Notes under the pieces: model-generated
Databases searched by the model: none
The model's input: only the letters and a program-made list of their open reading frames with translations
Told to the model about the DNA's origin: nothing
Source: Chloroflexota bacterium
GTDB lineage: Bacteria > Chloroflexota > Limnocylindria > QHBO01
Direction of reading: 5' to 3'
Assembly (NCBI GenBank): GCA_031370085.1
Contig: JANMPX010000190.1
Span: 1-35,063 of the forward strand
DNA length: 35,063 nt
In this document: in pieces, positions 10,739 to 18,643 of the stretch
Numbering within the stretch: the stretch's first letter is position 1
Layout: the number at the start of each line of letters is the position of its first letter
Program-made: the position numbers and the translations under genes

Positions 10739-11386
10739 CTAGACCGGCGCGGCGCCCGCGTGAACCCCGGCGTCGACCTTGCCGCGGGCGCGGTGGCGAG
10801 CCACCTTGGCCTGGTTGCCGCAGGTCCGCATGTCGCACCAGCGACGTCGTCCGGTCGGGGAGCGATCGACGAAGACCCAGCGGCAGTTCGGGTTGCCGCA
10901 GACGCGCAGCCGGTGCGCGGCGTCATCGGCCAGGAATTGCGCAAACGAGCTGGCGATGATGGCGCGCGCCTGGTCGAGCCGGTCGCCGATCTGTGCGAAG
11001 GAGTAGCTCGTTTCCTGGGGGTCAAGGCGCAGCTGGTGGAAATGCAGCCCGTGGCGGAGGATGTGGTTGAGGTCGCGTAGCTGTCCTGCCGTTGGACGCC
11101 CGTGCTCGACCACGGCCTCGGCCAGGTCGTGGAGCAGGCCGCGGAGATGGTGGAAGCGCTCCAGGCGTCGGGCAGCCTCGGCCGGGTCGCGGTGCAATCG
11201 CCCCGCCTCTGCGGCCCGGGCTCGGTCGCTGATCAGACCGTGGCCGCGCAGCCAGGTGAGGAGGGCATCCACATCGGGCAGGTGGTCGGTGTCCCTGCTG
11301 CGGCTGTGCTGCAGCGTATTGGAGAAGGCCGCGAACAGATCATCAGCCTCGTCCGGCCCGAAGCGTATGGCCTGGGTGAGTGTCAT
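10739..11386 (-). CDS. CGNR zinc-finger (ABATE-domain) putative transcription regulator
   Basis: The C-terminus is RLRVCGNPNCRWVFVDRSPTGRRRWCDMRTCGNQAKVARHRAR, the zf-CGNR signature with a CGNQ variant. Confidence 0.85.
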   Translation of the reverse strand: MTLTQAIRFGPDEADDLFAAFSNTLQHSRSRDTDHLPDVDALLTWLRGHGLISDRARAAEAGRLHRDPAEAARRLERFHHLRGLLHDLAEAVVEHGRPTAGQLRDLNHILRHGLHFHQLRLDPQETSYSFAQIGDRLDQARAIIASSFAQFLADDAAHRLRVCGNPNCRWVFVDRSPTGRRRWCDMRTCGNQAKVARHRARGKVDAGVHAGAAPV

Positions 11387-11389
11387 CTT

Positions 11390-11474
11390 GTAACCACTAT
11401 ACAGCGGTTGACAAGTTACTCACCCGGCGCTACCATACCCAATGGTAACCGTTCATCACGTCCTTATTAGTTAC
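11390..11474. promoter_or_regulatory. two copies of an inverted repeat GTAAC-N20-GTTAC (11390-11419 and 11445-11474), candidate operators
   Basis: GTAAC occurs at 11390 and 11445, and GTTAC at 11415 and 11470. Internal spacing is an identical 20 nt and the copies are offset by 55 nt. They sit in the lowest-GC stretch of the window, between the CGNR gene and the small ORFs. Confidence 0.45.
11408..11436 (+). promoter_or_regulatory. sigma-70-type promoter candidate (TTGACA-17 nt-TACCAT)
   Basis: An exact -35 hexamer lies at 11408-11413, followed by a 17-nt spacer and a TAnnnT -10 at 11431-11436. It points towards the small ORFs. Confidence 0.35.
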
Positions 11475-11500
11475 ACGTTTCCGCGACGGGAGGCAAATGA

Positions 11501-11581
11501 ATGATTGGATTGGTGCTGATCGTGGCGGTGATGGTGGCCTTCGACCTCGCCGCCGTTCGTTGGGGAGCGGACAGCCGTTGA
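11501..11581 (+). CDS. 26-aa hydrophobic micropeptide candidate (MIGLVLIVAVMVAFDLAAVRWGADSR)
   Basis: GGGAGG at 11488-11493 lies 7 nt before the ATG. Third positions are G/C-rich in this frame but not in the overlapping ATG-11497 frame. It has a single TM-like segment. It is below the ORF-track length cutoff. Confidence 0.4.
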   Translation: MIGLVLIVAVMVAFDLAAVRWGADSR

Positions 11582-11670
11582 CCCTACGCGACAGCCGCAT
11601 CGAAGGCCTGATACCGACGACCACATAGGGATCGCTCGCGCGATACCCAGAAACCACTGAGAGGAATCCC

Positions 11671-11832
11671 ATGAGCCGAGGCGCAACCTATCTCGGGCTA
11701 CTCGCCGCGCTGAAGCAGGAAGAGATGCTGTACGAGGCACGACGCCGACAGCGTTCGACCGACGTGATCCGTCGCCGCCGCGGCCGATCGCTCGGCGCGA
11801 CCCTGCTGCGCGTGCTGCGCGGCAAGCGCTAG
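11671..11832 (+). CDS. 53-aa highly basic small protein candidate (MSRGATYLGLLAALKQEEMLYEARRRQRSTDVIRRRRGRSLGATLLRVLRGKR)
   Basis: GAGAGGA at 11659-11665 lies about 6 nt before the ATG. It ends at TAG 11830-11832 and is followed by a terminator-like hairpin. Confidence 0.4.
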   Translation: MSRGATYLGLLAALKQEEMLYEARRRQRSTDVIRRRRGRSLGATLLRVLRGKR

Positions 11833-11852
11833 TCGCAAGCCCACCATCGACA

Positions 11853-11886
11853 CGGCCCGGACCCCGAACAGGGACCGGGCCGTTTC
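11853..11886 (+). terminator. intrinsic-terminator-like hairpin
   Basis: CGGCCCGG (11853-11860) pairs with CCGGGCCG (11875-11882). Inner CCC/GGG pairs extend the stem, and TTT follows. Confidence 0.5.
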
Positions 11887-11901
11887 CATTGCCTGCGTAG
11901 A

Positions 11902-13662
11902 ATGGCCCGCATGCCGACCCCGCGCGCCGTCACTCGTTCAGCGGACCCTGTGATCTCGAACGCGGAGCTGGCACGTGTCTTCCGGGAGATCGGCGACATG
12001 CTCGAGATCCTGGGCGAAGTCGTGTTCAAGGCCGTTGCCTATCGACGGGTGGCCGATGCGGTGGAGCGATGGCCTGAAGACGTGGCGGCCCTCTACCGGC
12101 AGGGGACCCCGCCGAAGGTTCCCGGTGTCGGGGACGCGTTGACCGCGAAGCTCGCCGAACTGGCCGAAACCGGGCACCTTGCGTACCACGAGCGTTTGCG
12201 GCTGCAGGTGCCGAGCGGGCTGCTCGACCTGCTCCGCATTCCCGGCCTCGGACCACGGACGGTCAAGCTGCTGCATGGCGAGCTGGGGATCGACTCGCTC
12301 GAGTCGCTGCGGGCCGCCGCGGAAGTCGGCGCGCTCAGACCGCTGAAGGGACTCTCAGCGCGGACCGAGCAGAACATCCTTGCCGGGATATCCCGCCTCG
12401 CGACCCAGGGCAGCCGCCTGCTGCTCCACGACGCCGATCTGCTCGCCGCCGAGCTGGTCGAGCAGCTTCGAACCGCGCGCGGTCTGCGCCAGATCGCTCC
12501 GGCAGGTTCGTTGCGCCGCCGCTGCGCCAGCATCGGTGATCTCGACTTGCTGGCAGCCACCGACGACCCGGCCTCGCTCATCGCCGCCTTCGGCCGCCTG
12601 CCCCAGGTCGCTCGGATCCTGTCGGCGGGCACTGACAAGTCGAGCGTGTTGCTGGCCTCGGGCCGCCAGGTCGACCTGATGGTCTGTGCTCCCGTTGCAT
12701 GGGGGACGCACCTCGTGCATTTCACCGGCAGCCGGGACCATAACGTCGCGCTCCGCTCGCGGGCGCTGGAGCGCGGGCTGTCGCTCTCCGAGAAGGGGTT
12801 CAAGGTGGTCGACACCGGCGAGCTGGAACTGGTGGCCACCGAATCGGACGTGTACGCCCGCCTGGACCTGCCCTTGATCGCCCCGGAACTGCGCGAGGAT
12901 TCGGGGGAGATCCAGGCCGCGGCCGCGGATCAGCTGCCCGACCTGCTGCGCCTCGAGGACCTGCAGGGTGACACGCACGTCCACTCGGATTGGACCGACG
13001 GCGTCGACTCAATCGAGGCGATGGCGCGCGCGGCCCGCCAACGCGGGCATGGATGGATGGTCCTGACCGACCATTCACCATCGCTGGGGATCACCCGCGG
13101 CCTGTCTGCCGAGCGCGTCGCCGAGCAGCGGGCCGAGGTTGGTCGCATTAACCGCGAGCTGGCGCCGTTCCGCATCCTGCACGGAACCGAGATGGAGATC
13201 CGGGCTGACGGCAGCCTTGACTACCCCGATGAGCTGCTGGCCGGGTTCGACCTGGTCGTCGCCAGTGTCCACACCGCACGCGGGCAATCAAGCGACCAGC
13301 TGACGCGGAGAACGCTGGCCGCCATCGAGAATGAGCATGTCGACGCCATCGCGCACCCGACCGGCAGGATCGTGAATCGAAGGGACCCGGTGGTGCTCGA
13401 CTGGCCGCGGGTGTTCGAGGCCGCGGCCCGCACCGGCACCGCGCTCGAGCTCAACGGCAGTCCGCGCCTCGATCTCGATGACACCCTCGGGCGCGCGGCC
13501 GGCCGGGCCGGCGTGTGGCTCACGCTGGCGAGCGATGCCCACCGGACGGAAGAACTGGATCAGCTTCGCTATGCCGTCGATATGGCTCGCCGAGCCTGGC
13601 TGACCGCGCCGCAGGTGATCGGGGCTCGCTCGGCAGGTTCGCTGCTGGAGCTGGTTCGATGA
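11902..13662 (+). CDS. polX: family X DNA polymerase with C-terminal PHP phosphoesterase domain
   Basis: HhH regions are present (ELARVFREIGDMLEILGE..FKAVAYRR; IPGLGPRTVKLLH). The Pol-beta NTase motif is GSLRRRCASIGDLDLLA. The PHP motifs are GDTHVHSDWTDG, TDHS and ASVH. Confidence 0.9.
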   Translation: MARMPTPRAVTRSADPVISNAELARVFREIGDMLEILGEVVFKAVAYRRVADAVERWPEDVAALYRQGTPPKVPGVGDALTAKLAELAETGHLAYHERLRLQVPSGLLDLLRIPGLGPRTVKLLHGELGIDSLESLRAAAEVGALRPLKGLSARTEQNILAGISRLATQGSRLLLHDADLLAAELVEQLRTARGLRQIAPAGSLRRRCASIGDLDLLAATDDPASLIAAFGRLPQVARILSAGTDKSSVLLASGRQVDLMVCAPVAWGTHLVHFTGSRDHNVALRSRALERGLSLSEKGFKVVDTGELELVATESDVYARLDLPLIAPELREDSGEIQAAAADQLPDLLRLEDLQGDTHVHSDWTDGVDSIEAMARAARQRGHGWMVLTDHSPSLGITRGLSAERVAEQRAEVGRINRELAPFRILHGTEMEIRADGSLDYPDELLAGFDLVVASVHTARGQSSDQLTRRTLAAIENEHVDAIAHPTGRIVNRRDPVVLDWPRVFEAAARTGTALELNGSPRLDLDDTLGRAAGRAGVWLTLASDAHRTEELDQLRYAVDMARRAWLTAPQVIGARSAGSLLELVR

Positions 13663-14417
13663 TCGCCGGCCGGCTCGGCTTCCTGCGGCGGATCGAGCGA
13701 CCCGATGCGCTGCTGCTGGCAATCGGACTGGCCGTGCTCGCAGCGGTCGGCTGGTTCCTCTCGCCGTTTGGCGTGGCGCTGGTGATCGGCGCACAGCTGA
13801 TTGTCGGAGGCATCGGTGGCGTGTGGCTGGTCGGCCCGATCCGGCCTCGCTACGGCTTTGCGCGCTACGGAACACCGGCGGTGGCGAGCGTGGCTGCCAC
13901 CCTCGTGGGTCGGTTGCTTGGCGGACCGCTTCAGCTGGCGGCGATTCCGATCGTGGCGGGTCTGCTGCTCAGCGTCATCTGGGCCGAAATGCACCTTCCC
14001 ACGGACCGCGTGCCTCGGCTGGCAATCGACCTTGCGCTGGTTGGGATCGTCTTCGCGTCTGCGGCCGGATTGGCGGTCGCCCTGCCCAGGCTGTCCTGGC
14101 CGCCGTCCTTGATCCTCGTGGTGGTTGTGACCGCGCTGCCGGCGCTCCGGGCTGCCGAGCTGCGCGGACGCTTCGGCGTGGAAGCCGTCGGCCAGGCAGC
14201 CCTGCACCTGTTGGCGGTCGCGCAGCTTGGCGCCGCGCTGGCGTTGCTGCAGCTTCCCGGCGTGGTCGGGCCTGCGATCCTGGCATTGGGATTCCACGCC
14301 TGGTCGGGCGCAGCGGAGTCGCTCGACGCGGGGGCGCCGACGCGTGCCACGGTCGTCGAATTCGGGACGCTGGGTTTGCTCGGGATCCTGGTGGCCATCT
14401 TGCTGGCCGGTCGGTAA
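13659..14417 (+). CDS. polytopic integral membrane protein, unknown function
   Basis: ATG 13659 overlaps the polX stop (ATGA). The protein is 252 aa with about 7 hydrophobic helices. The track ORF starting at 13515 is an in-frame upstream extension inside polX. Confidence 0.7.
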   Translation: MIAGRLGFLRRIERPDALLLAIGLAVLAAVGWFLSPFGVALVIGAQLIVGGIGGVWLVGPIRPRYGFARYGTPAVASVAATLVGRLLGGPLQLAAIPIVAGLLLSVIWAEMHLPTDRVPRLAIDLALVGIVFASAAGLAVALPRLSWPPSLILVVVVTALPALRAAELRGRFGVEAVGQAALHLLAVAQLGAALALLQLPGVVGPAILALGFHAWSGAAESLDAGAPTRATVVEFGTLGLLGILVAILLAGR

Positions 14418-14448: not shown

Positions 14449-14477
14449 TTGACACCCTCCGCGGCCTCTGCTACAAC
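14449..14477 (+). promoter_or_regulatory. sigma-70-type promoter candidate (TTGACA-17 nt-TACAAC)
   Basis: An exact -35 lies at 14449-14454, followed by a 17-nt spacer and a -10 at 14472-14477. It sits about 70 nt upstream of the TPR gene. Confidence 0.4.
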
Positions 14478-14549
14478 AAGGCACCTTTCGGCCGGGGGAC
14501 CCCTCGGGCGGAGGGTCTTTCATGGCCGGGCACGCCTGCACGCGGGGAG

Positions 14550-15380
14550 ATGATGACGCTCGGAGAGACCGACAGCACGGGCCGCCAGCGACGCCATCTC
14601 TCGGAGTTGGCGATCATCCAGTCGACCCAGGGCGACTGGGAAGAGGCGGTCGCCACCAACCGCCAGCTGCTCGAGCTTGGCGCCGATACCGATACCTACA
14701 ACCGCCTCGGCAAGGCGCTTGCCGAGCTCGGCCGGAACGCCGAGGCGCTCGAAGCCTACGAAAAGGCGCTCGAGCGGGACGCCACGAACCGGATCGCCGA
14801 GCGGAACGTGGCGCGTATCCGCGTCATGATGGCGGGCGAGACTACCGCCGTCGGCGACGGCAAGCAGGAGAAGGCGACCGCTGCGCACTTCATCGAGGAG
14901 ATGGGCAAGACCGGGCACGCTCGCCTCATCAACTCTCCGCCGGCGAAGCAGCTTGCCTCGCTTTCGCCTGGCGACGCGGTAGAGCTGCAGCTCGACGGGG
15001 GCCTGCTCGGAGCCCGGGTCGGCGATCTCGAGATTGGCCAGGTCGAGCCGCGCGTCGGCACCCGCCTTGCCAAGCTGATCAAGGGCGGCAATCGCTACGA
15101 GGCGGCCATCACGACCGTCGATCGGGCTGAGGTGCGGATCATCATCCACGAGGTCTTTGCCGACCCGGAGAACATTGGCAAGGTGTCCTTCCCGGGGAAT
15201 TCGGGTACGCGGGCAGGTGACGTCAGGCCGTACATGAAGGGGACCCCGCTCCGCTACGATGACGAAGAGGAGTCCGAGGAGAATGAGGAGGAGTCCGAGG
15301 AGGTCGAGGAGCTCGACACCAGCCTCCCTGAATTCTCCGCCGAGCCGGACCTCGAGGAAGAGCTGCTCGAAGAACCGTAG
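14550..15380 (+). CDS. TPR-repeat protein with beta-rich middle domain and poly-acidic C-terminal tail
   Basis: TPR-like repeats are present (GDWEEAVATNRQLLELGADTDTYNRLGKALAELGRNAEALEAYEKALERD). The middle region is LSPGDAVELQLDGG...IGQVEPRVGTRLAKLIKGGNRYEAAITTV. The tail is DDEEESEENEEESEEVEELDTSLPEFSAEPDLEEELLEEP. Confidence 0.8.
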   Translation: MMTLGETDSTGRQRRHLSELAIIQSTQGDWEEAVATNRQLLELGADTDTYNRLGKALAELGRNAEALEAYEKALERDATNRIAERNVARIRVMMAGETTAVGDGKQEKATAAHFIEEMGKTGHARLINSPPAKQLASLSPGDAVELQLDGGLLGARVGDLEIGQVEPRVGTRLAKLIKGGNRYEAAITTVDRAEVRIIIHEVFADPENIGKVSFPGNSGTRAGDVRPYMKGTPLRYDDEEESEENEEESEEVEELDTSLPEFSAEPDLEEELLEEP

Positions 15381-15386
15381 GAGCCG

Positions 15387-18212
15387 ATGAACGAGGGCGA
15401 CCGGAAGCGACTGGATCACGTGGTCCTTCCCCGCCGCCTTCCCGGGCTCGCTCTGCTTGAGCGCTACTTCCCCTCGCCGGCGGACAACCAGCTGGATGCC
15501 GAGCTGGCCGCGTTTGCCCATGCGGGAGACATCGTGCTCGACCCTTGGGCGGGCACCGGCTGGACCGCGCGGCGCGCCATTGCGCAGGGGATGCGGGTGG
15601 TCGCCGCCGATCCGAGCCCGTTTGCGCAACTGGCCGCGCAGGCGTTCCTGCTCGCTCCCGACCCCGCGGCGCTGGATGCCGCCTTCAACCAGCTCGCCTC
15701 GTCCCGTCGGGTCGACGTGCCGCTGCGCCAGCACATCGAGGAGCTGTACGCGACGCGGTGCGCCGCATGCCGGCGGCCGGTGGTCGGCGATCAGTTCATC
15801 TGGCCGCGGGACGGGGACGCCCCCGGCCGCAAGATCTATCGGTGCTCGAATTGCGACGTCGCGGTCGGCGGACCCGAAGAACGGGTGGCCCCGGTCGACG
15901 ATGGCGACCTGGCCAAGCTCGGTATCGACCGTCCCGCCGCGACGCTGAGCGCAGAGGTGTCGGATCTGGCGCCTGACGCCGACGAGGATCTGCCGCCGGC
16001 ACCCATCGGCCTGACCCGGGCGCCCGAACCGGACGATGACCACGCCGCCACGCTTGGCGAGCCAGGAGGTCCGCCGCCGCCCCCGGTCAGCGCGCCGGAC
16101 CCGCCTGGCGGGGGGACTCGCGCCGCGCGACCGCGTTTCGCCTCGACCGTGCATCCGGATCCGGCGCCTGCGCCAAGCACCGACATACGCCAGAGCCTTC
16201 ACTACCAGCAGCTGCGCGACCGCTTCCCGGTGCTCGACGGGCACGACGACCTGCTCGATGAGCTGCTCGACCTGTACACGCCGCGGAACCTGTACGCGCT
16301 GCAGACGATCGCCAGCAAGATCGATGCCGAGTTCCGCGACCCGCCGCTGGCTGCCATCTTCCGACTGGCGCTGGCTGCCTGCCTGCTGCCCGGCAGCCGT
16401 CTGAACGGGTACCCCGGTCGCGTCGCGTCACTGCGCATCAGCGGAGGGCACGTCCGCCAGCCGGCGTCGCGGCATCAGCGCGAGGTGAACGTGTGGCGGC
16501 TCTTCGAGTCGGCCGTGACCGATGTGGGGATTGCGCTGGCGGCCATCGGGCGGGATCGACGGCAGGCCCGATTCGCTGCCGACCTCGAGGAGCTGACCGG
16601 GGTCGGAGCCGCCAACGTGCTCTGGATTCGCTGCCGGCCGGCCGTGGTGGGGCAGTACCTGCCGGCCGACGGGCTGGATTTTGTGCTCGGGTCGGTCGCG
16701 CCGCCGGCCAGCGTCGATGAGCTCAGCTTCGAGTACCTGGCGACCGCATGGCTGATCGGGCGCGAGGCGGCGGAGACGCTGCGCCTGGAACCGCTCTTCG
16801 GCGCCCAGCAGACACGGGCCGCGGCGGCCGAGGCGACCGCCCTCCGTCACGCGATGGCATCGGCGACCGGAACCCTGAAGCCCGGAGGCTGGTGCAGCGT
16901 GCTGATGGAGGGCTCCGACCCCGAGCGGATGCTGGCGGTGGCGGTGGCCGGTGCAGCAGCCGAACTGGTCCTGGTGGACGTCATCCTGCGCGAGTCGGTG
17001 CGCTCCGGCGACGGGGTGACGTTGCACTTTCGCAAGCCATCCGCCGTCGAGCGGACTTCGGAGGCTGCCGAGCTCGCGCCACTGCGTCTCGGCGAGGAAG
17101 ACGGCCGCCTCACCTACCCCGAGCTCGCCGATGCGATCGAGCGATCAGCGGTTGCCCTCCTCCGCGAGAGGGGCGAGCCGGCCGGGCTGCTGCGCATCGC
17201 CGCGGCGCTCCTGGTCGATCTGCAGCGCACCAGCCTCTTGCGCCGCGTGGCGACGGCGCGCGGCGCTTCCACGGAGGATTTGAGCGAATTGCCCGAAGAG
17301 AGCGCCGACGAGGCGGAGCGCCGGGATCGAAGCGGTGCCGCCCTCCTGTTGAGCCTGCTGCGCGAAGAGTTGGAGCGCGATGACCACCCTTCGCTCCTAC
17401 AGGTCGGCGAAGGCGAGCGACCCACCTGGTGGCTGCGACAGCCGGAGCTGATCGAGGCGCCGCTCGCCGATCGCGTGGAGTGGGCGGCCTTCTCGGTGCT
17501 CACCACGGCCGGCCGGCTCGACGAGGCCTCGTTCTTCGAGCGCATCTTCGCTCTCTTCCCGGGCACCGGATCACCTGACGAGGAGCTTGTGCGCGCCTGC
17601 CTTGCGGCATACGCGGCGGTCGGTGAACGCGGGCAGCTGCGGAGCGAGGAGACCCTGGCCGGGCGCCAGGAGGACCATGCACGGATGATCGGCACCCTGG
17701 TCGACTATGCCCATCGGCTCGGTCTGCGGGCGTGGGTGGCCCGCAACGAGCAGGACCGGGTCGATCGTGGCGCGCCGCTCGGTCACCGGCTGGGTGAAGA
17801 CGAGCGACGGGCGTATCTGCCGCTGGTGGTCCGCGCGCCGGCAGAGGCGCTGAACGCCGTCGACGCCATCTGGTACCTGCGCGGCCGACTCGCCTTCCTA
17901 TTCGAGGTCGAATGGACCGCGATGCTGGGTGAACCGATCCTGCGCAACGGCCGACGCATCGATCCCACCGAGCAGCAGGCGAGATTCATCGTCTTCCCCG
18001 CGGAACGCGCGGACCTCCTTCGACTCAAGCTCGAGCGCTCACCGTGGCTCCGCGACGAGGTGGCACGCCAGAACTGGCATTTCCTGAAGTGGCAGCATCT
18101 GGACACGCTTGTCGCGCGTGATGGAGCGAGCCTTGAGTGGCTCGAGCCGGTGCTTGGCCTCAACCCGCTCATCGAGCGCGGCGGTCAGCAGCTGACCATC
18201 TTCGGCGAGTGA
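15387..18212 (+). CDS. large Zn-ribbon SAM-methyltransferase-like protein (COG1743-like layout, degenerate DPPY motif) with C-terminal nuclease-like domain
   Basis: Motif I is DIVLDPWAGTGWT, followed by VVAADPSPFA. A CxxC...CxxC ribbon spans C125-C156. Further elements are LYTPRNLYAL, DFVLGSVAPPASVDELSFEYLATAWL at the DPPY position, and LKPGGW. The C-terminus is VDAIWYLRGRLAFLFEVEW. The gene starts 6 nt after the TPR gene. The reading frame is secure; the function is not. Confidence 0.8.
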   Translation: MNEGDRKRLDHVVLPRRLPGLALLERYFPSPADNQLDAELAAFAHAGDIVLDPWAGTGWTARRAIAQGMRVVAADPSPFAQLAAQAFLLAPDPAALDAAFNQLASSRRVDVPLRQHIEELYATRCAACRRPVVGDQFIWPRDGDAPGRKIYRCSNCDVAVGGPEERVAPVDDGDLAKLGIDRPAATLSAEVSDLAPDADEDLPPAPIGLTRAPEPDDDHAATLGEPGGPPPPPVSAPDPPGGGTRAARPRFASTVHPDPAPAPSTDIRQSLHYQQLRDRFPVLDGHDDLLDELLDLYTPRNLYALQTIASKIDAEFRDPPLAAIFRLALAACLLPGSRLNGYPGRVASLRISGGHVRQPASRHQREVNVWRLFESAVTDVGIALAAIGRDRRQARFAADLEELTGVGAANVLWIRCRPAVVGQYLPADGLDFVLGSVAPPASVDELSFEYLATAWLIGREAAETLRLEPLFGAQQTRAAAAEATALRHAMASATGTLKPGGWCSVLMEGSDPERMLAVAVAGAAAELVLVDVILRESVRSGDGVTLHFRKPSAVERTSEAAELAPLRLGEEDGRLTYPELADAIERSAVALLRERGEPAGLLRIAAALLVDLQRTSLLRRVATARGASTEDLSELPEESADEAERRDRSGAALLLSLLREELERDDHPSLLQVGEGERPTWWLRQPELIEAPLADRVEWAAFSVLTTAGRLDEASFFERIFALFPGTGSPDEELVRACLAAYAAVGERGQLRSEETLAGRQEDHARMIGTLVDYAHRLGLRAWVARNEQDRVDRGAPLGHRLGEDERRAYLPLVVRAPAEALNAVDAIWYLRGRLAFLFEVEWTAMLGEPILRNGRRIDPTEQQARFIVFPAERADLLRLKLERSPWLRDEVARQNWHFLKWQHLDTLVARDGASLEWLEPVLGLNPLIERGGQQLTIFGE

Positions 18213-18304: not shown

Positions 18305-18643
18305 CTAGGGGCGCGGCGAGGCCTTCGGCCTGCTCGCTCGACGACCGAGCGCGCGGCGCACCACCGACATCACCTCTCCGACGTACGGCTCGCCCTGACC
18401 GGTCTCGATGGCATGCGTCAGACAACCGTCGATGTGATCCTCGAGCAGCAGGAGCGCCACCTCGTCTGCGGCGGCGGTCAGGGAGTCGACCTGCTGAAGG
18501 ATCTCGAGGCAATAGGCCTCCTCTTCGACCAGGCGCTGGACTCCACGCGCCTGCCCCTCGATCCGCCGCAGCCGATTGAGCAGCTCGCGACGGTCCTTGG
18601 TGTAGGAATGGCGGAAGTGGGCCGCCTCCGGATCGGTGCTCAT
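18305..18643 (-). CDS. csoR: CsoR/RcnR-family metal-sensing transcriptional repressor (x-C-H-C type)
   Basis: 112 aa, starting MSTDPEAAHFRHSYTKDRRELLNRLRRIEGQARGVQRLVEEEAYCLEILQQ...LEDHIDGC. Ligand positions are Cys45, His70 and Cys74. The 400-aa track ORF is an upstream extension antisense to the next gene. Confidence 0.85.
   Translation of the reverse strand: MSTDPEAAHFRHSYTKDRRELLNRLRRIEGQARGVQRLVEEEAYCLEILQQVDSLTAAADEVALLLLEDHIDGCLTHAIETGQGEPYVGEVMSVVRRALGRRASRPKASPRP

What the first reader, a model, noticed from the sequence alone, without database searches (positions are those of the whole stretch)
14449..18212. Two-gene module: TPR/acidic-tail protein plus 941-aa Zn-ribbon methyltransferase-like protein, just downstream of PolX
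Seen in the sequence:
- A good promoter candidate (TTGACA-17-TACAAC) precedes two genes separated by 6 nt.
- Gene 1 combines TPR repeats, a beta-rich middle domain and an extremely acidic 40-aa tail. The middle domain spacing (PGDAVELQLDG...IGQVEPRVGTRLAKLIKGGNRYEAAITTV) reminds me of HIRAN-type DNA-end-binding barrels, but this is tentative.
- Gene 2 has the element order I associate with COG1743 'adenine-specific DNA methylase with Zn-ribbon' proteins: DPWAGTGWT, AADPSPFA, a CxxC/CxxC ribbon, LYTPRNLYAL, a [DPPY-position] element, ELSFEYLATAWL and LKPGGW.
- Gene 2 also carries a Pro-rich linker, roughly 250 aa of helical region and a nuclease-like C-terminus.

No helicase, ATPase or specificity partner typical of R-M or defence systems is adjacent. 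The neighbours are PolX and a membrane protein.

Inference: an uncharacterised DNA-directed module for repair, DNA-end processing or modification reading. The acidic tail could act as a DNA mimic or autoinhibitor.
Basis: partly seen in the sequence, partly recalled or inferred. Interest (0 to 1): 0.8.

Follow-up and report, generated by a model that had tools for sequence, protein, structure and literature searches.

The report
Domesticated methylase-nuclease repair module beside PolX
A conserved two-gene operon next to DNA polymerase X in Chloroflexota encodes a DNA-end-binding-like adaptor and a large protein descended from a restriction-modification enzyme that has lost its methylase catalytic motif and ends in a sliding-clamp-binding-type peptide. 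It looks like an undescribed DNA-repair module, not a defence system.

Summary
Gene 1 (14553-15380) and gene 2 (15387-18212) lie 6 nt apart behind a promoter-like site (TTGACA-N14-TGc-TACAAC) found in 77/77 related loci.

Gene 1 has TPR repeats, a beta-barrel whose predicted fold matches HIRAN domains (fold level only), and an acidic tail with a conserved core.

Gene 2 is a full-length homologue of N6_N4 methylase + NmeDI_C (restriction-endonuclease-type) fusion proteins (hhalign 99.9%). However, the DPPY catalytic motif is replaced by non-conserved S-V-A-P, and the DUF1156 domain is absent. Motif I survives only in this clade.

The C-terminal domain keeps a D...E-x-E triad. The disordered tail ends in Q-L-x-[LI]-F, the beta-clamp-binding consensus. 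This motif occurs in 51/68 full-length relatives versus 0.14% of other sequence windows.

The order polX-membrane gene-gene 1-gene 2 is conserved in two Chloroflexota clades only 37% identical (55/57 loci in the second clade). More distant relatives lack these partners; two sit head-to-head with recA.

Best reading: a vertically inherited, clamp-tethered DNA-repair or end-processing module built from a domesticated R-M enzyme. Its function is inferred, not shown.

The parts
14449..14477 (+). Promoter-like site with an extended -10: TTGACA (14449-14454), 14 nt, TGc (14469-14471), TACAAC (14472-14477)
   Evidence: Sequence read. TTGACA-N13-15-TGnTAnAAn is present in 77/77 related upstream regions, 58-99 nt before the start codon, within otherwise variable intergenic DNA. 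Promoter activity has not been shown.
14501..14521 (+). Short G+C hairpin with a weak T-run in the 5' leader (or a weak terminator after the membrane gene)
   Evidence: Terminator-like hit. The number of such hits is not above the shuffle expectation, and the sequence is not conserved in the alignment. Weak evidence.
14553..15380 (+). Gene 1: TPR + HIRAN-like barrel + acidic-tail protein (275 aa from the second ATG; the ORF also opens at 14550)
   Evidence: It is 62-89% identical in clade A loci and 51% identical to the clade B orthologue L086:5420-6382.
14559..14831 (+). TPR region of gene 1 (residues ~4-94, five helices)
   Evidence: Pfam TPR_1 E 3e-10. AF2 pLDDT 83-95. Foldseek matches to consensus TPR and carboxylate-clamp-type TPRs (Hop, SGT).
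14910..15155 (+). HIRAN-like beta-barrel of gene 1 (residues ~121-202)
   Evidence: AF2 pLDDT ~70-81. Foldseek: 3k2y E 5e-4, TMt 0.70; HLTF HIRAN bound to DNA (4s0n) E 3e-3, TMt 0.53-0.55. No sequence-profile support.
15252..15377 (+). Acidic C-terminal tail of gene 1 (23 D/E in 42 residues) with a conserved core EE[VI]E[ED]LD..LP
   Evidence: The final ~25 residues are invariant or nearly invariant in 21 clade A sequences. A tail with the same core and ~60% D/E is present in all clade B orthologues examined.
15387..18212 (+). Gene 2: 941-aa degenerate methylase + NmeDI_C-type protein
15435..17066 (+). Methylase-derived module (residues ~17-560). Motif I DPWAGTGWT (52-60) is kept. The motif IV position (436-439, S-V-A-P) is degenerate
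   Evidence: PDB and Pfam matches cover only residues ~28-100. hhalign to a DUF1156-type methylase: Prob 99, E 4e-18. hhalign to the canonical relative P0333: Prob 99.9. Motif table.
15759..15854 (+). Zn ribbon CxxC...CxxC (C125, C128, C153, C156)
   Evidence: All four Cys are invariant in A1. In the distant alignment A3, C125 and C128 are invariant and C153 and C156 are at least 90% conserved. All 73 full-length members show both CxxC pairs apart from one alignment gap. Aligns with the Zn-ribbon insertion of the DUF1156-type methylase.
15924..16181 (+). Clade A-specific Pro-rich disordered insertion (residues 180-265) with conserved short motifs (DLPPAP.GL, GE.G.PP, PR[FYW]ASTV.P)
   Evidence: 21 P in 86 residues. 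pLDDT below 50. Conserved islands in A1. Absent from clades B and C.
17109..17654 (+). Mostly helical middle region (residues ~575-756) with invariant RGEP (595-598) and DRVEW (695-699)
   Evidence: AF2 pLDDT 80-94, apart from a disordered loop at 626-647. Conserved columns.
17655..18155 (+). C-terminal NmeDI_C-type alpha/beta domain (residues ~757-923) with D826, W829, E840-V-E842, R874 and K901
   Evidence: Precomputed PF27126 on the window protein and relatives, named NmeDI_C, and a strong hit on the canonical relative P0333. AF2 pLDDT 81-93 with an alpha-beta-beta-beta-alpha-beta order. Residue conservation. No PDB or local Pfam match.
18189..18203 (+). C-terminal Q-L-T-I-F (residues 935-939), matching the beta-clamp-binding consensus QLxLF, in a disordered tail
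   Evidence: pLDDT below 50 for 924-941. Q935 is conserved family-wide. The motif is in the last 15 residues of 51/68 full-length relatives versus 5/3645 other 15-residue windows. The QLxLF consensus, usually C-terminal, is taken from PMC4549789.
11902..13662 (+). polX (HhH, polymerase beta thumb, PHP), first gene of the conserved four-gene cluster
   Evidence: Pfam. Conserved position in clade A and clade B loci.
13659..14417 (+). Multi-pass hydrophobic (membrane) protein, 252 aa; its start overlaps the polX stop (ATGA)
   Evidence: hydropathy segments, ATGA overlap. No Pfam family. The same position and the same 4-nt overlap occur in L086. Only weak similarity between clades.

Best explanation
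Genes 1 and 2 form a vertically inherited operon with its own promoter. It sits inside a conserved Chloroflexota cluster: polX, membrane protein, gene 1, gene 2.

Shown:
- Gene 2 descends from a single-chain restriction-modification-type enzyme: a Zn-ribbon N6/N4 amino-methylase core of the DUF1156-associated type, fused to an NmeDI_C restriction-endonuclease-type domain.
- In this lineage the methylase catalytic loop (DPPY) is gone.
- The SAM-binding motif I, the Zn ribbon, the acidic triad D826/E840/E842 of the C-terminal domain, and a disordered C-terminal Q-L-x-[LI]-F peptide are all kept.

Inferred:
- Gene 2 no longer methylates DNA. The methylase-like half serves as a DNA-binding or base-inspecting module, possibly SAM-binding in this clade.
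- The C-terminal domain cuts or nicks DNA.
- The tail tethers the protein to the beta sliding clamp, at replication or repair intermediates.
- Gene 1 acts as an adaptor. Its HIRAN-like barrel holds a DNA 3' end or gap. Its TPR region and conserved acidic tail mediate protein contacts or autoinhibition.
- PolX then trims the gap with its PHP domain and fills it.

Overall: a clamp-coupled excision or end-processing repair module, not a defence system.
For: Homology and architecture:
- hhalign of the close-family profile against the canonical relative P0333 gives Prob 99.9, E 5.5e-36 over 751 columns. P0333 has an intact DPFCGSGVT and TDPPYWD, with strong precomputed Pfam hits to N6_N4_Mtase and NmeDI_C.
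- hhalign of distant family members against a genuine DUF1156/N6_N4 methylase gives Prob 99, E 4e-18.

Loss of the catalytic motif:
- The DPPY position is S-V-A-P and is variable in 30 close homologues.
- It is degenerate in 71 of 73 full-length members.

Retained features: motif I, four Cys, D826, W829, E840/E842 and R874.

Clamp-type tail:
- 51/68 relatives carry it versus 0.14% of background windows.
- It lies in a low-confidence, disordered tail.
- The consensus is taken from PMC4549789.

Gene 1: TPR, a HIRAN-like fold, and a tail conserved in both clades.

Linkage:
- All clade A loci with enough upstream DNA show polX-membrane-gene 1-gene 2.
- 55/57 clade B loci have gene 1 upstream, although gene 2 is only 37% identical between clades and the outer flanks differ.

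Promoter: conserved in 77/77 loci.

Housekeeping character:
- Single copy on long chromosomal contigs with stable synteny.
- 63-90% identity across 80 species-level genomes.
- PADLOC gives only generic methylase motif hits.

Other repair contexts: two clade C genes lie head-to-head with recA-recX. One of them has a perfect AGAAC-N4-GTTCT palindrome in the shared intergenic region.
Against: - No biochemical or genetic data exist for any family member, and no paper was found.
- The C-terminal domain has no match to a solved nuclease. Its 'active site' has E where PD-(D/E)xK enzymes usually have K.
- In many clade C members the acidic residues are lost, so catalysis is not a family-wide requirement.
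- The QLxLF-like tail also occurs in the canonical, probably R-M-type relatives (KQLNLINF and GQTFLF). It may therefore have another role.
- HIRAN assignment rests on a medium-confidence model and Foldseek E-values of 5e-4 to 3e-3 only.
- The N-terminal half of gene 2 was modelled poorly (pLDDT below 50).
- Gene 1 and polX are absent next to clade C genes.
- No LexA-box-like site lies near the module in the window.
Confidence: 0.5

Rival explanations
1. Gene 2 is a pure pseudoenzyme. Both the methylase and the nuclease modules are catalytically dead relics, and the protein works only as a DNA-binding or clamp-binding scaffold or regulator, for example recruiting or restraining PolX or other factors. 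Gene 1 is its adaptor.
For: - Motif IV is lost family-wide, and motif I is lost outside clade A.
- The E-x-E pair is lost in many clade C members, while the Zn ribbon, D826/W829, R874, the helical region and the C-terminal tail persist.
- There is no structural match to an active nuclease.
Against: - Clades A and B keep D826 and an acidic pair at the E840-x-E842 positions throughout. D replaces E840 in some clade A members, and Q replaces E842 in one.
- The canonical relatives with intact methylase motifs carry the same triad (FEVEN). This suggests an ancestral active site kept under selection.
- Motif I is invariant in clade A.
Confidence: 0.25
2. Gene 2 is still an active methyltransferase using a non-canonical catalytic arrangement. 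It would act on DNA (epigenetic or repair-strand marking) or on another substrate (RNA or protein). The C-terminal domain would serve target recognition.
For: - Motif I DPW[AS]GTGWT is strictly conserved. The following acidic residue (AAD75) is present in most clade A sequences but is replaced in a subclade (AAEAS).
- There is homology to the SAM-binding part of beta-class methylases.
- The block VDELSFEYLATAW right after the motif IV position is invariant.
Against: - The (D/N/S)PP(Y/F/W) loop needed for exocyclic amino methylation is absent and not conserved.
- Sister clades have R or Q in place of the first Gly of motif I, so SAM binding is not required for the family's function.
- The Pfam N6_N4_Mtase score is below the cut-off (16.3 versus 26.7 bits).
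Confidence: 0.1
3. Gene 2, with gene 1, is a restriction or anti-phage defence enzyme of the single-chain Type IIG-like kind.
For: - Ancestry from a methylase + restriction-endonuclease-domain fusion.
- Weak PADLOC hits to Type II methylase models and mad2.
- One clade C homologue lies beside an EcoO109I/DUF1156 R-M pair.
Against: - There is no self-protecting methylase activity expected (motif IV lost) and no cognate methylase nearby.
- The locus is stable, syntenic and single-copy in about 80 species-level genomes with 63-88% identity. This is unlike mobile defence islands.
- The R-M pair in L084 is absent from the otherwise syntenic locus L167, so it is an insertion.
- The linkage is to polX, and in clade C to recA, not to defence genes.
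Confidence: 0.05
4. The gene order reflects inherited synteny only. Genes 1 and 2 are functionally unrelated to polX and the membrane gene, and possibly to each other.
For: - Genes 1 and 2 have their own conserved promoter, and a 132-nt gap with a hairpin separates them from the membrane gene.
- Clade C homologues of gene 2 occur without gene 1 or polX.
- In some clade B loci 0.9-1.3 kb separate gene 1 from gene 2.
Against: - The four-gene order survives between clades whose gene 2 products are 37% identical, while the outer flanks differ.
- 55/57 clade B loci keep gene 1 upstream.
- The 6-nt spacing in clade A suggests co-translation.
- All four products are compatible with DNA-end biology, except the membrane protein.
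Confidence: 0.1

Closest known systems
DUF1156-associated (COG1743-type) Zn-ribbon N6/N4 DNA methylases (Pfam PF01555 core)
   Same: The order and spacing of elements match: motif X/I, D-x-N-P, the CxxC...CxxC ribbon, the F/Y-T-x-R-x-L helix, E-N-V-W, the motif IV position and LKxxG. hhalign gives Prob 99, E 4e-18 over 375 columns.
   Different: - There is no DUF1156 N-terminal domain; the alignment starts at methylase residue 75.
- DPPY is replaced by S-V-A-P.
- A ~380-residue helical + NmeDI_C extension and a clamp-type tail are added.
- The context is chromosomal repair, not an R-M or defence operon.
Canonical N6_N4_Mtase + NmeDI_C fusion proteins (for example P0333 and P0344; precomputed Pfam PF01555 + PF27126)
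   Same: Whole-length homology (hhalign Prob 99.9, E 5.5e-36, 751 columns). They share the Zn ribbon, the C-terminal D...E-V-E motif and a Q-containing hydrophobic C-terminal tail.
   Different: - Those proteins keep the GxG and TDPPY motifs and are probably active methylases.
- The window protein and nearly all Chloroflexota members have degenerate motifs.
- The window's clade has a Pro-rich insertion and the gene 1/polX linkage.
R.NmeDI, a Type II restriction endonuclease of Neisseria meningitidis (PMC2095814)
   Same: The Pfam family that hits the C-terminal domain is named after its C-terminal part.
   Different: R.NmeDI is a 351-aa stand-alone endonuclease with a separate C5 methylase. 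Hits on the Chloroflexota proteins are marked weak or faint. I could not align the two directly because the model is not in the local Pfam copy.
NucS/EndoMS and MutH: restriction-endonuclease-fold nucleases domesticated for DNA repair (own knowledge, not tested here)
   Same: This is a working analogy. An R-M-type nuclease fold has been recruited to chromosomal repair. In NucS/EndoMS, the nuclease is tethered to the sliding clamp by a C-terminal peptide.
   Different: - No sequence or structural relationship was detected.
- The window protein is three to four times larger and carries a methylase-derived half.
- No mismatch or lesion specificity is known.
HIRAN domains (HLTF; lp_0118, PDB 3k2y)
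   Same: The predicted barrel of gene 1 superposes on 3k2y (TM 0.70) and on HLTF HIRAN bound to a DNA 3' end (TM 0.55).
   Different: - No Pfam HIRAN hit and no PDB sequence-profile hit.
- The barrel is fused to TPR repeats and an acidic tail, not to a helicase or nuclease.
- The 3'-end-binding residues were not checked.
Bacterial PolX repair genes (Bacillus, Thermus and Deinococcus PolX with a PHP domain; PMC3479172, PMC6616362 listed)
   Same: The cluster's first gene is a standard bacterial PolX with HhH, thumb and PHP domains. These enzymes are described as gap-filling polymerases with AP-endonuclease and 3'-5' exonuclease activities.
   Different: I found no description of a PolX operon containing a HIRAN-like or methylase-derived partner.

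Membership tests
N6/N4 amino-methyltransferases (Pfam PF01555; DUF1156/COG1743 type) | SAM-binding motif I (F-x-G-x-G) preceded by motif X | tested here: met
   DPWAGTGWT at residues 52-60. D, P, W, both G, W and T are invariant in 30 close homologues. It aligns to motif I of M.RsrI and TTHA0409. It is lost in clades B and C.
N6/N4 amino-methyltransferases (Pfam PF01555; DUF1156/COG1743 type) | Catalytic motif IV (D/N/S)-P-P-(Y/F/W) | tested here: not met
   The position maps to S436-V-A-P439 through the hhalign register. The columns are variable (GSVAPPAS, GSVTDAAT, TAIGPPGS). Only 2 of 73 family members have DPPY.
N6/N4 amino-methyltransferases (Pfam PF01555; DUF1156/COG1743 type) | Score above the curated Pfam threshold | tested here: not met
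   16.3 bits versus a cut-off of 26.7, covering residues 42-74 only.
N6/N4 amino-methyltransferases (Pfam PF01555; DUF1156/COG1743 type) | DUF1156 N-terminal domain | tested here: not met
   No Pfam hit. The hhalign alignment begins at residue 75 of the DUF1156 methylase, after that domain.
N6/N4 amino-methyltransferases (Pfam PF01555; DUF1156/COG1743 type) | Zn-ribbon insertion between motifs I-III and motif IV, and homology of the core fold | tested here: met
   Four conserved Cys. hhalign Prob 99, E 4e-18 over 375 columns.
Methylase + NmeDI_C fusion family (PF27126) | Full-length homology to members with confident PF01555 + PF27126 hits | tested here: met
   hhalign of A1 against P0333: Prob 99.9, E 5.5e-36, 751 columns. 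P0333 carries unmarked (strong) N6_N4_Mtase and NmeDI_C hits. PF27126 is also precomputed on the window's own protein cluster P0001.
PD-(D/E)xK restriction-endonuclease-like nucleases | Alpha-beta-beta-beta-alpha-beta core with D at the start of strand 2 and (D/E)-x-K in strand 3 | tested here: inconclusive
   - The AF2 secondary-structure order fits: H757-778, E781-784, E827-831, E835-841, H848-857, E864-870.
- D826 precedes strand 2, and E840-V-E842 ends strand 3.
- K is replaced by E. A BamHI-like E-x-E is known from my own knowledge.
- No Foldseek, PDB or local Pfam match exists for this domain.
PD-(D/E)xK restriction-endonuclease-like nucleases | Metal-dependent DNA cleavage | not testable with these tools
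   Needs biochemistry.
HIRAN domain (PF08797) | HIRAN beta-barrel fold | tested here: met
   Foldseek: 3k2y E 5e-4, TMt 0.70; 4s0n (HLTF HIRAN + DNA) E 3e-3, TMt 0.53-0.55. The model's domain pLDDT is ~70-81.
HIRAN domain (PF08797) | Sequence-profile membership | tested here: not met
   No HIRAN hit at E up to 1 for the whole protein, or up to 10 for the isolated barrel from two clades. The PDB profile search finds neither 3k2y nor 4s0n.
TPR repeat proteins | TPR helix pairs above the Pfam thresholds | tested here: met
   TPR_1 39.9 bits (cut-off 27.8) and TPR_2 35.1 bits (cut-off 27). Five helices with pLDDT 83-95.
Beta-sliding-clamp-binding proteins | Q-L-x-L-F type pentapeptide, typically in a flexible C-terminal tail | tested here: met
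   - Q935-L-T-I-F939 lies 2 residues from the C-terminus, in a tail with pLDDT below 50.
- It is conserved in 51/68 full-length relatives versus 5/3645 control windows.
- The consensus is taken from PMC4549789.
Beta-sliding-clamp-binding proteins | Physical binding to DnaN | not testable with these tools
Needs a peptide-DnaN binding assay.
Restriction-modification or anti-phage defence systems | Cognate active methylase, partner genes or island context, patchy distribution | tested here: not met
   - Neighbours are polX, a membrane protein, CsoR, PIG-L and an ABC transporter.
- PADLOC gives only generic methylase motif hits.
- Synteny is stable in 80 species-level genomes.

The most novel reading that the evidence does not exclude
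Chloroflexota possess a previously unrecognised, beta-clamp-coupled excision-repair route. In it, a domesticated restriction-modification enzyme acts as the sensor and nickase: a methylase-derived, non-methylating base-inspecting module plus an NmeDI-type nuclease. A TPR-HIRAN adaptor captures the resulting 3' end. PolX resynthesises the DNA. This would be a third solution to post-replicative mismatch or lesion repair, alongside MutS/MutL and NucS/EndoMS. In the window's clade, SAM binding might be retained as a regulatory input.
Probability: 0.15. Interest if true: 0.9.

Novelty: new variant of a known kind. Interest (0 to 1): 0.66.

Why it matters
- It would add a phylum-wide, uncharacterised partner set to bacterial PolX, whose cellular pathway is still poorly defined.
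- It would give a clear example of a restriction-modification enzyme domesticated into a chromosomal maintenance factor. The stepwise decay of catalytic motifs is visible across clades.
- The predicted clamp-binding tail, the HIRAN-like end binder and the conserved acidic tail give direct, cheap experimental handles: peptide-DnaN binding, point mutants and pull-downs.
- The family has 1611 clusters at 50% identity with E up to 1e-3. All source-supplied names I saw were 'hypothetical protein'. Any functional assignment would therefore annotate many genomes.

Tried and rejected
1. Foldseek of the gene 2 model against the PDB and BFVD gave only weak hits to methylase fragments (best E 0.034) and nothing for the C-terminal domain. 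The N-terminal half of the model is unreliable (pLDDT below 50) because the alignment used was shallow.
2. Pfam and PDB sequence searches with isolated C-terminal domains from four family members gave nothing. PF27126 is not in the local Pfam copy, so I could not rescore it.
3. NCBIfam gave no meaningful family for either protein.
4. A Pfam and PDB profile search with the isolated barrel of gene 1 gave no HIRAN hit.
5. The search for related loci with the most divergent alignment failed. The genome scan then returned only the 80 closest (clade A) loci of 211 relatives, so the taxonomic range outside Limnocylindria could not be read from organism names.
6. The word-index search with distant members returned only 21 proteins.
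7. Rfam gave no RNA family in the window.
8. LexA-box-like GAAC-N4-GTTC: matches in the window are at chance level and none is near the module.
9. The apparent 'Rosetta-stone' protein P0274 (gene 2 N-terminus plus the gene 1 acidic tail) comes from one 1245-bp contig and is most likely a mis-assembly.
10. Literature searches for PF27126, HIRAN + PolX and DUF1156 found no description of this family.
11. The defence or R-M reading was considered and rejected on context and motif loss.

Full report
**1. Observation**

The window is about 68-70% G+C. The two ORFs are present.

- Gene 1 is listed as 14550..15380. The second ATG at 14553 is the likely start. This matches the database protein P0121 (275 aa) and the spacing from the Shine-Dalgarno-like GGGGAGA seen in homologues.
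- Gene 2 is 15387..18212 (941 aa). It is separated from gene 1 by TAG + 6 nt.
- The promoter-like site is TTGACA (14449-14454), 14 nt, TGc, TACAAC (14472-14477). The generic scanner skips it because the -10 hexamer ends in C.
- Phylogenetic footprinting is decisive. All 77 upstream regions from related loci contain TTGACA-N13-15-TGnTAnAAn, 58-99 nt before the start codon, in an intergenic region whose remaining sequence is poorly conserved.

Neighbours:
- PolX (HhH, thumb and PHP domains) lies upstream.
- A 252-aa hydrophobic multi-pass protein follows. Its ATG overlaps the polX stop as ATGA.
- Downstream lie a CsoR-type repressor (minus strand), a PIG-L deacetylase and an ABC exporter.

**2. 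Gene 1**

- Pfam sees only TPR repeats, at residues 15-90.
- The AlphaFold2 model has five confident TPR helices (pLDDT 83-95). It also has a beta-barrel at 121-202 (pLDDT about 70-81) and disordered segments at 97-120 and from residue 204 to the C-terminus.
- Besides TPR proteins, Foldseek against the PDB finds 3k2y (lp_0118; E 5e-4, TM 0.70 on the target). It also finds the HLTF HIRAN domain bound to DNA (4s0n; E 3e-3, TM 0.53-0.55).
- Sequence profiles do not see HIRAN. I therefore call the barrel HIRAN-like at fold level only.
- The last 42 residues hold 23 D/E and one basic residue.
- The tail is not mere low complexity. EEVEELDTSLPEFSAEPDLEEELLEEP is nearly invariant in 21 clade A sequences.
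- Clade B orthologues (51% identical overall) carry EEI[ET]DLDRVLPPE..T.EAF.EE.DELDE, which has the same core EE[VI]E[ED]LD..LP.
- A conserved hydrophobic core inside an acidic tail points to a specific docking peptide. The partner is unknown. It could be the protein's own TPR, a DNA-binding surface of PolX or gene 2, or something else.

**3. Gene 2: what it is**

*Direct searches are nearly blind.*
- Pfam N6_N4_Mtase scores 16.3 bits, below its cut-off, and covers residues 42-74 only.
- PDB hits to the beta-class methylases TTHA0409 and M.RsrI cover motif X/I only.
- PADLOC gives only generic Type II methylase motif hits.

*The protein has many homologues.*
- The word-index search finds 468 proteins. 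The top 120 are full-length, 67-100% identical, and come from Chloroflexota / Ca. Limnocylindria MAGs. Every one that carries a source name is called 'hypothetical protein'.
- The exhaustive profile search finds 1611 clusters at 50% identity with E up to 1e-3, and 293 with E up to 1e-30. These include full-length proteins of 750-985 aa at 26-41% identity.

*Three groups emerge.*
- Clade A is the window's group (Limnocylindria).
- Clade B is about 37% identical. One member is labelled Chloroflexi/Chloroflexota.
- Group C is a heterogeneous set at 26-34% identity. Its only named member is also labelled Chloroflexi.

*Two profile-profile comparisons settle the ancestry.*
- The B+C profile aligns to a genuine DUF1156/N6_N4 methylase (L084:5743-7938, with FMGGGT and TDPPY) at Prob 99, E 4e-18, over 375 columns. 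The alignment runs through motif I, D-x-N-P, the Zn ribbon, the F/Y-T-x-R-x-L helix, E-N-V-W, the motif IV position and LKxxG.
- The clade A profile aligns over 751 columns (residues 17-912) to P0333 at Prob 99.9, E 5.5e-36. P0333 is an 825-aa protein with intact DPFCGSGVT and TDPPYWD motifs and strong precomputed Pfam hits to N6_N4_Mtase and PF27126 'NmeDI_C'.

PF27126 is also precomputed on the window's own protein cluster. The family name refers to the Type II restriction endonuclease R.NmeDI (PMC2095814). Gene 2 is therefore a divergent member of a methylase + restriction-endonuclease-domain fusion family.

**4. Gene 2: what is kept and what is lost**

I tabulated motif states over 73 full-length members.

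| Feature | State |
|---|---|
| Motif IV (DPPY) | Intact only in P0333 and P0344. Group C mostly x-x-P-P-x; clade B T-Q-P-P-x. In the window the register maps DPPY to S436-V-A-P439, and these columns vary even within clade A. |
| Motif I (GxG) | Canonical only in clade A (DPW[AS]GTGWT, invariant apart from A/S at the fourth position) and in the two canonical proteins. Clades B and C have R or Q at the first Gly. |
| Zn ribbon | The four-Cys ribbon is essentially invariant. |
| C-terminal domain | D826, W829 and R874 are nearly invariant. The acidic pair at E840-x-E842 is kept in clades A and B, part of group C, and the canonical relatives (FEVEN). It is lost in many group C members. |

The AF2 model is confident for residues 480-923. 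There it shows the last strands of a Rossmann-type fold, then a helical region, then an alpha-beta-beta-beta-alpha-beta domain. In that domain D826 heads one strand and E840/E842 end the next. This topology is compatible with the PD-(D/E)xK fold, with E in the K position. BamHI-like E-x-E sites are known to me but were not tested here. Foldseek gave no supporting nuclease hit.

In summary, the window protein is very unlikely to be an amino-methyltransferase. It may still bind SAM. It has a plausibly intact nuclease-type acidic site.

**5. The C-terminal tail**

- The last 18 residues are predicted disordered.
- They end in Q935-L-T-I-F939-G-E.
- Across the family the tail reads EQLALF, EQLPLF, VQLSLF, AQIPLF, QLPLL and similar.
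- Among 68 representatives of at least 700 aa, 51 have Q[LIM]x[LMIF][FLIW] in the last 15 residues. Only 5 of 3645 other 15-residue windows of the same proteins have it.
- Several of the 17 exceptions have the motif slightly further from the end, or are frameshifted gene calls.
- This matches the bacterial beta-clamp-binding consensus Q-L-x-L-F, which is typically C-terminal (PMC4549789).
- Binding is inferred, not shown.
- One caveat: the canonical relatives also end in similar peptides (KQLNLINF and GQTFLF). The tail therefore predates the loss of methylase motifs.

**6. Genomic context**

*Clade A.* All loci with enough upstream DNA show polX, membrane gene, gene 1 and gene 2 on one strand, with 63-88% identity for gene 2. 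The 80 loci come from a collection holding one genome per species. Within such a close group this could be plain synteny.

*Clade B provides the informative test.*
- In L086 the same four genes occur in the same order, with the same 4-nt polX/membrane overlap, although the outer flanks are unrelated (GGDEF and DUF885 genes).
- Of 57 metagenomic clade B loci with more than 1.2 kb upstream of gene 2, 55 have the gene 1 orthologue upstream on the same strand.
- Where sequence extends further, the membrane gene and polX are present as well.
- Spacing between gene 1 and gene 2 varies there from 37 to about 1300 nt.

*Group C homologues lack gene 1 and polX nearby.*
- Two are head-to-head with recA-recX-rny. 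One of these has a perfect AGAAC-N4-GTTCT palindrome in the shared intergenic region.
- Others sit among housekeeping genes.
- One has an EcoO109I/DUF1156 R-M pair inserted upstream, which the syntenic locus L167 lacks.

No locus resembles a defence island.

**7. Mechanism (inference)**

The simplest model that uses all conserved features is a clamp-tethered repair or end-processing module.
- The methylase-derived half, with the Zn ribbon and helical region, binds DNA and may inspect flipped bases. In clade A it may use SAM as a ligand.
- The NmeDI_C-type domain incises.
- The QLxLF tail localises the protein to clamps left on DNA at replication or repair intermediates.
- The HIRAN-like barrel of gene 1 holds a 3' end or gap, while its TPR and acidic tail organise or gate the complex.
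- PolX processes and fills the gap. The PHP nuclease and gap-filling roles of PolX come from established knowledge of bacterial PolX, for example PMC3479172 and PMC6616362 listed.
- The role of the co-translated membrane protein is unexplained.

My estimated probabilities for the separate steps are as follows.

| Claim | Probability |
|---|---|
| Ancestry and architecture | 0.95 |
| Not an amino-methylase | 0.8 |
| Clamp binding | 0.6 |
| Functional link with gene 1 | 0.7 |
| Functional link with PolX | 0.55 |
| Active nuclease | 0.45 |

The main rival is a fully non-catalytic scaffold. The minor rivals are residual methyltransferase activity, a defence function, and meaningless synteny.

**8. 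Comparison with what is known, and novelty**

- All the parts are known kinds of domain: a Zn-ribbon amino-methylase core, an NmeDI_C restriction-type domain, TPR, a HIRAN-like barrel and a clamp-binding peptide.
- Domestication of restriction-type nucleases for repair has precedents in MutH and in clamp-tethered NucS/EndoMS. These are from my own knowledge; no relationship was detected here.
- I found nothing describing this family, its decay of methylase motifs, its clamp-type tail, or its conserved linkage to a TPR-HIRAN-like protein and PolX.
- All source names seen are 'hypothetical protein'.
- I therefore rate it a new variant of a known kind. It has moderately high interest and rests entirely on computational inference.

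Noticed in passing
window 11390-11436: In the divergent region between the ABATE/zf-CGNR regulator gene (10739-11386, minus strand) and polX there is a conserved block, CTTGTAACCACTATACAGCGGTTGACAAG. It is a near-palindrome overlapping a TTGACA-17-TACCAT promoter-like site, conserved at 70-90% or more in 63 related loci. It is possibly the operator of the ABATE-type regulator, controlling the small ORFs and polX downstream.
   Followed up: partly
window 11437-11901 (for example the ORF at 11671-11832): The 515-nt gap before polX holds small ORFs. The syntenic locus L001 has 37-aa and 52-aa gene calls there. The 53-codon ORF at 11671-11832 is patchily conserved. No Rfam family matches.
   Followed up: partly
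window 13659-13662; L086 4492-4495: The start of the membrane-protein gene overlaps the polX stop by 4 nt (ATGA). The same overlap occurs in the 37%-distant clade B. This suggests translational coupling of a multi-pass membrane protein of unknown family with PolX.
   Followed up: partly
L168 5813-6000; L169 5859-6000: In two group C loci the gene 2 homologue is head-to-head with recA-recX-rny. L169 has a perfect AGAACCCATGTTCT palindrome (LexA-box-like) between the two genes. L168 instead has a 10-bp inverted repeat, GATGCAGGAT...ATCCTGCATC. Both have TGGTATACT as a likely extended -10.
   Followed up: partly
P0333 (L170 1145-3622) and P0344: These are low-G+C relatives with intact FxGxG and TDPPY motifs, the same Zn ribbon, the FEVEN motif and a Q-containing C-terminal tail. 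They are presumably active methylase + NmeDI_C enzymes and are useful as an outgroup and for biochemistry.
   Followed up: partly
L172 (1245-bp contig), protein P0274: This is a 207-aa predicted protein that joins the first ~170 residues of a gene 2 homologue to the acidic tail of gene 1. It sits directly after a gene 1 fragment. It is most likely a de Bruijn-graph mis-assembly, but a real fusion is not excluded.
   Followed up: partly
window 15924-16181 (gene 2 residues 180-265): The Pro-rich disordered insertion is specific to clade A. It contains short strictly conserved islands (D.DLPPAP.GL, GE.G.PP, PR[FYW]ASTV.P) that look like docking motifs. Their partner is unknown.
   Followed up: no
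window 18305-18640 (minus strand); L085 11050-11364: A CsoR-type metal-sensing repressor gene lies just downstream of gene 2, on the opposite strand, in the window. It is also downstream of a 27%-identical group C homologue. This is possibly coincidence.
   Followed up: no
L156 and L161 (also L155, L157, L158): A small subgroup of clade B loci has no gene 1 orthologue. L156 and L161 have 3.0-3.8 kb of sequence upstream of gene 2 with none. The shorter loci show none in the sequence available. What replaces it was not examined.
   Followed up: no
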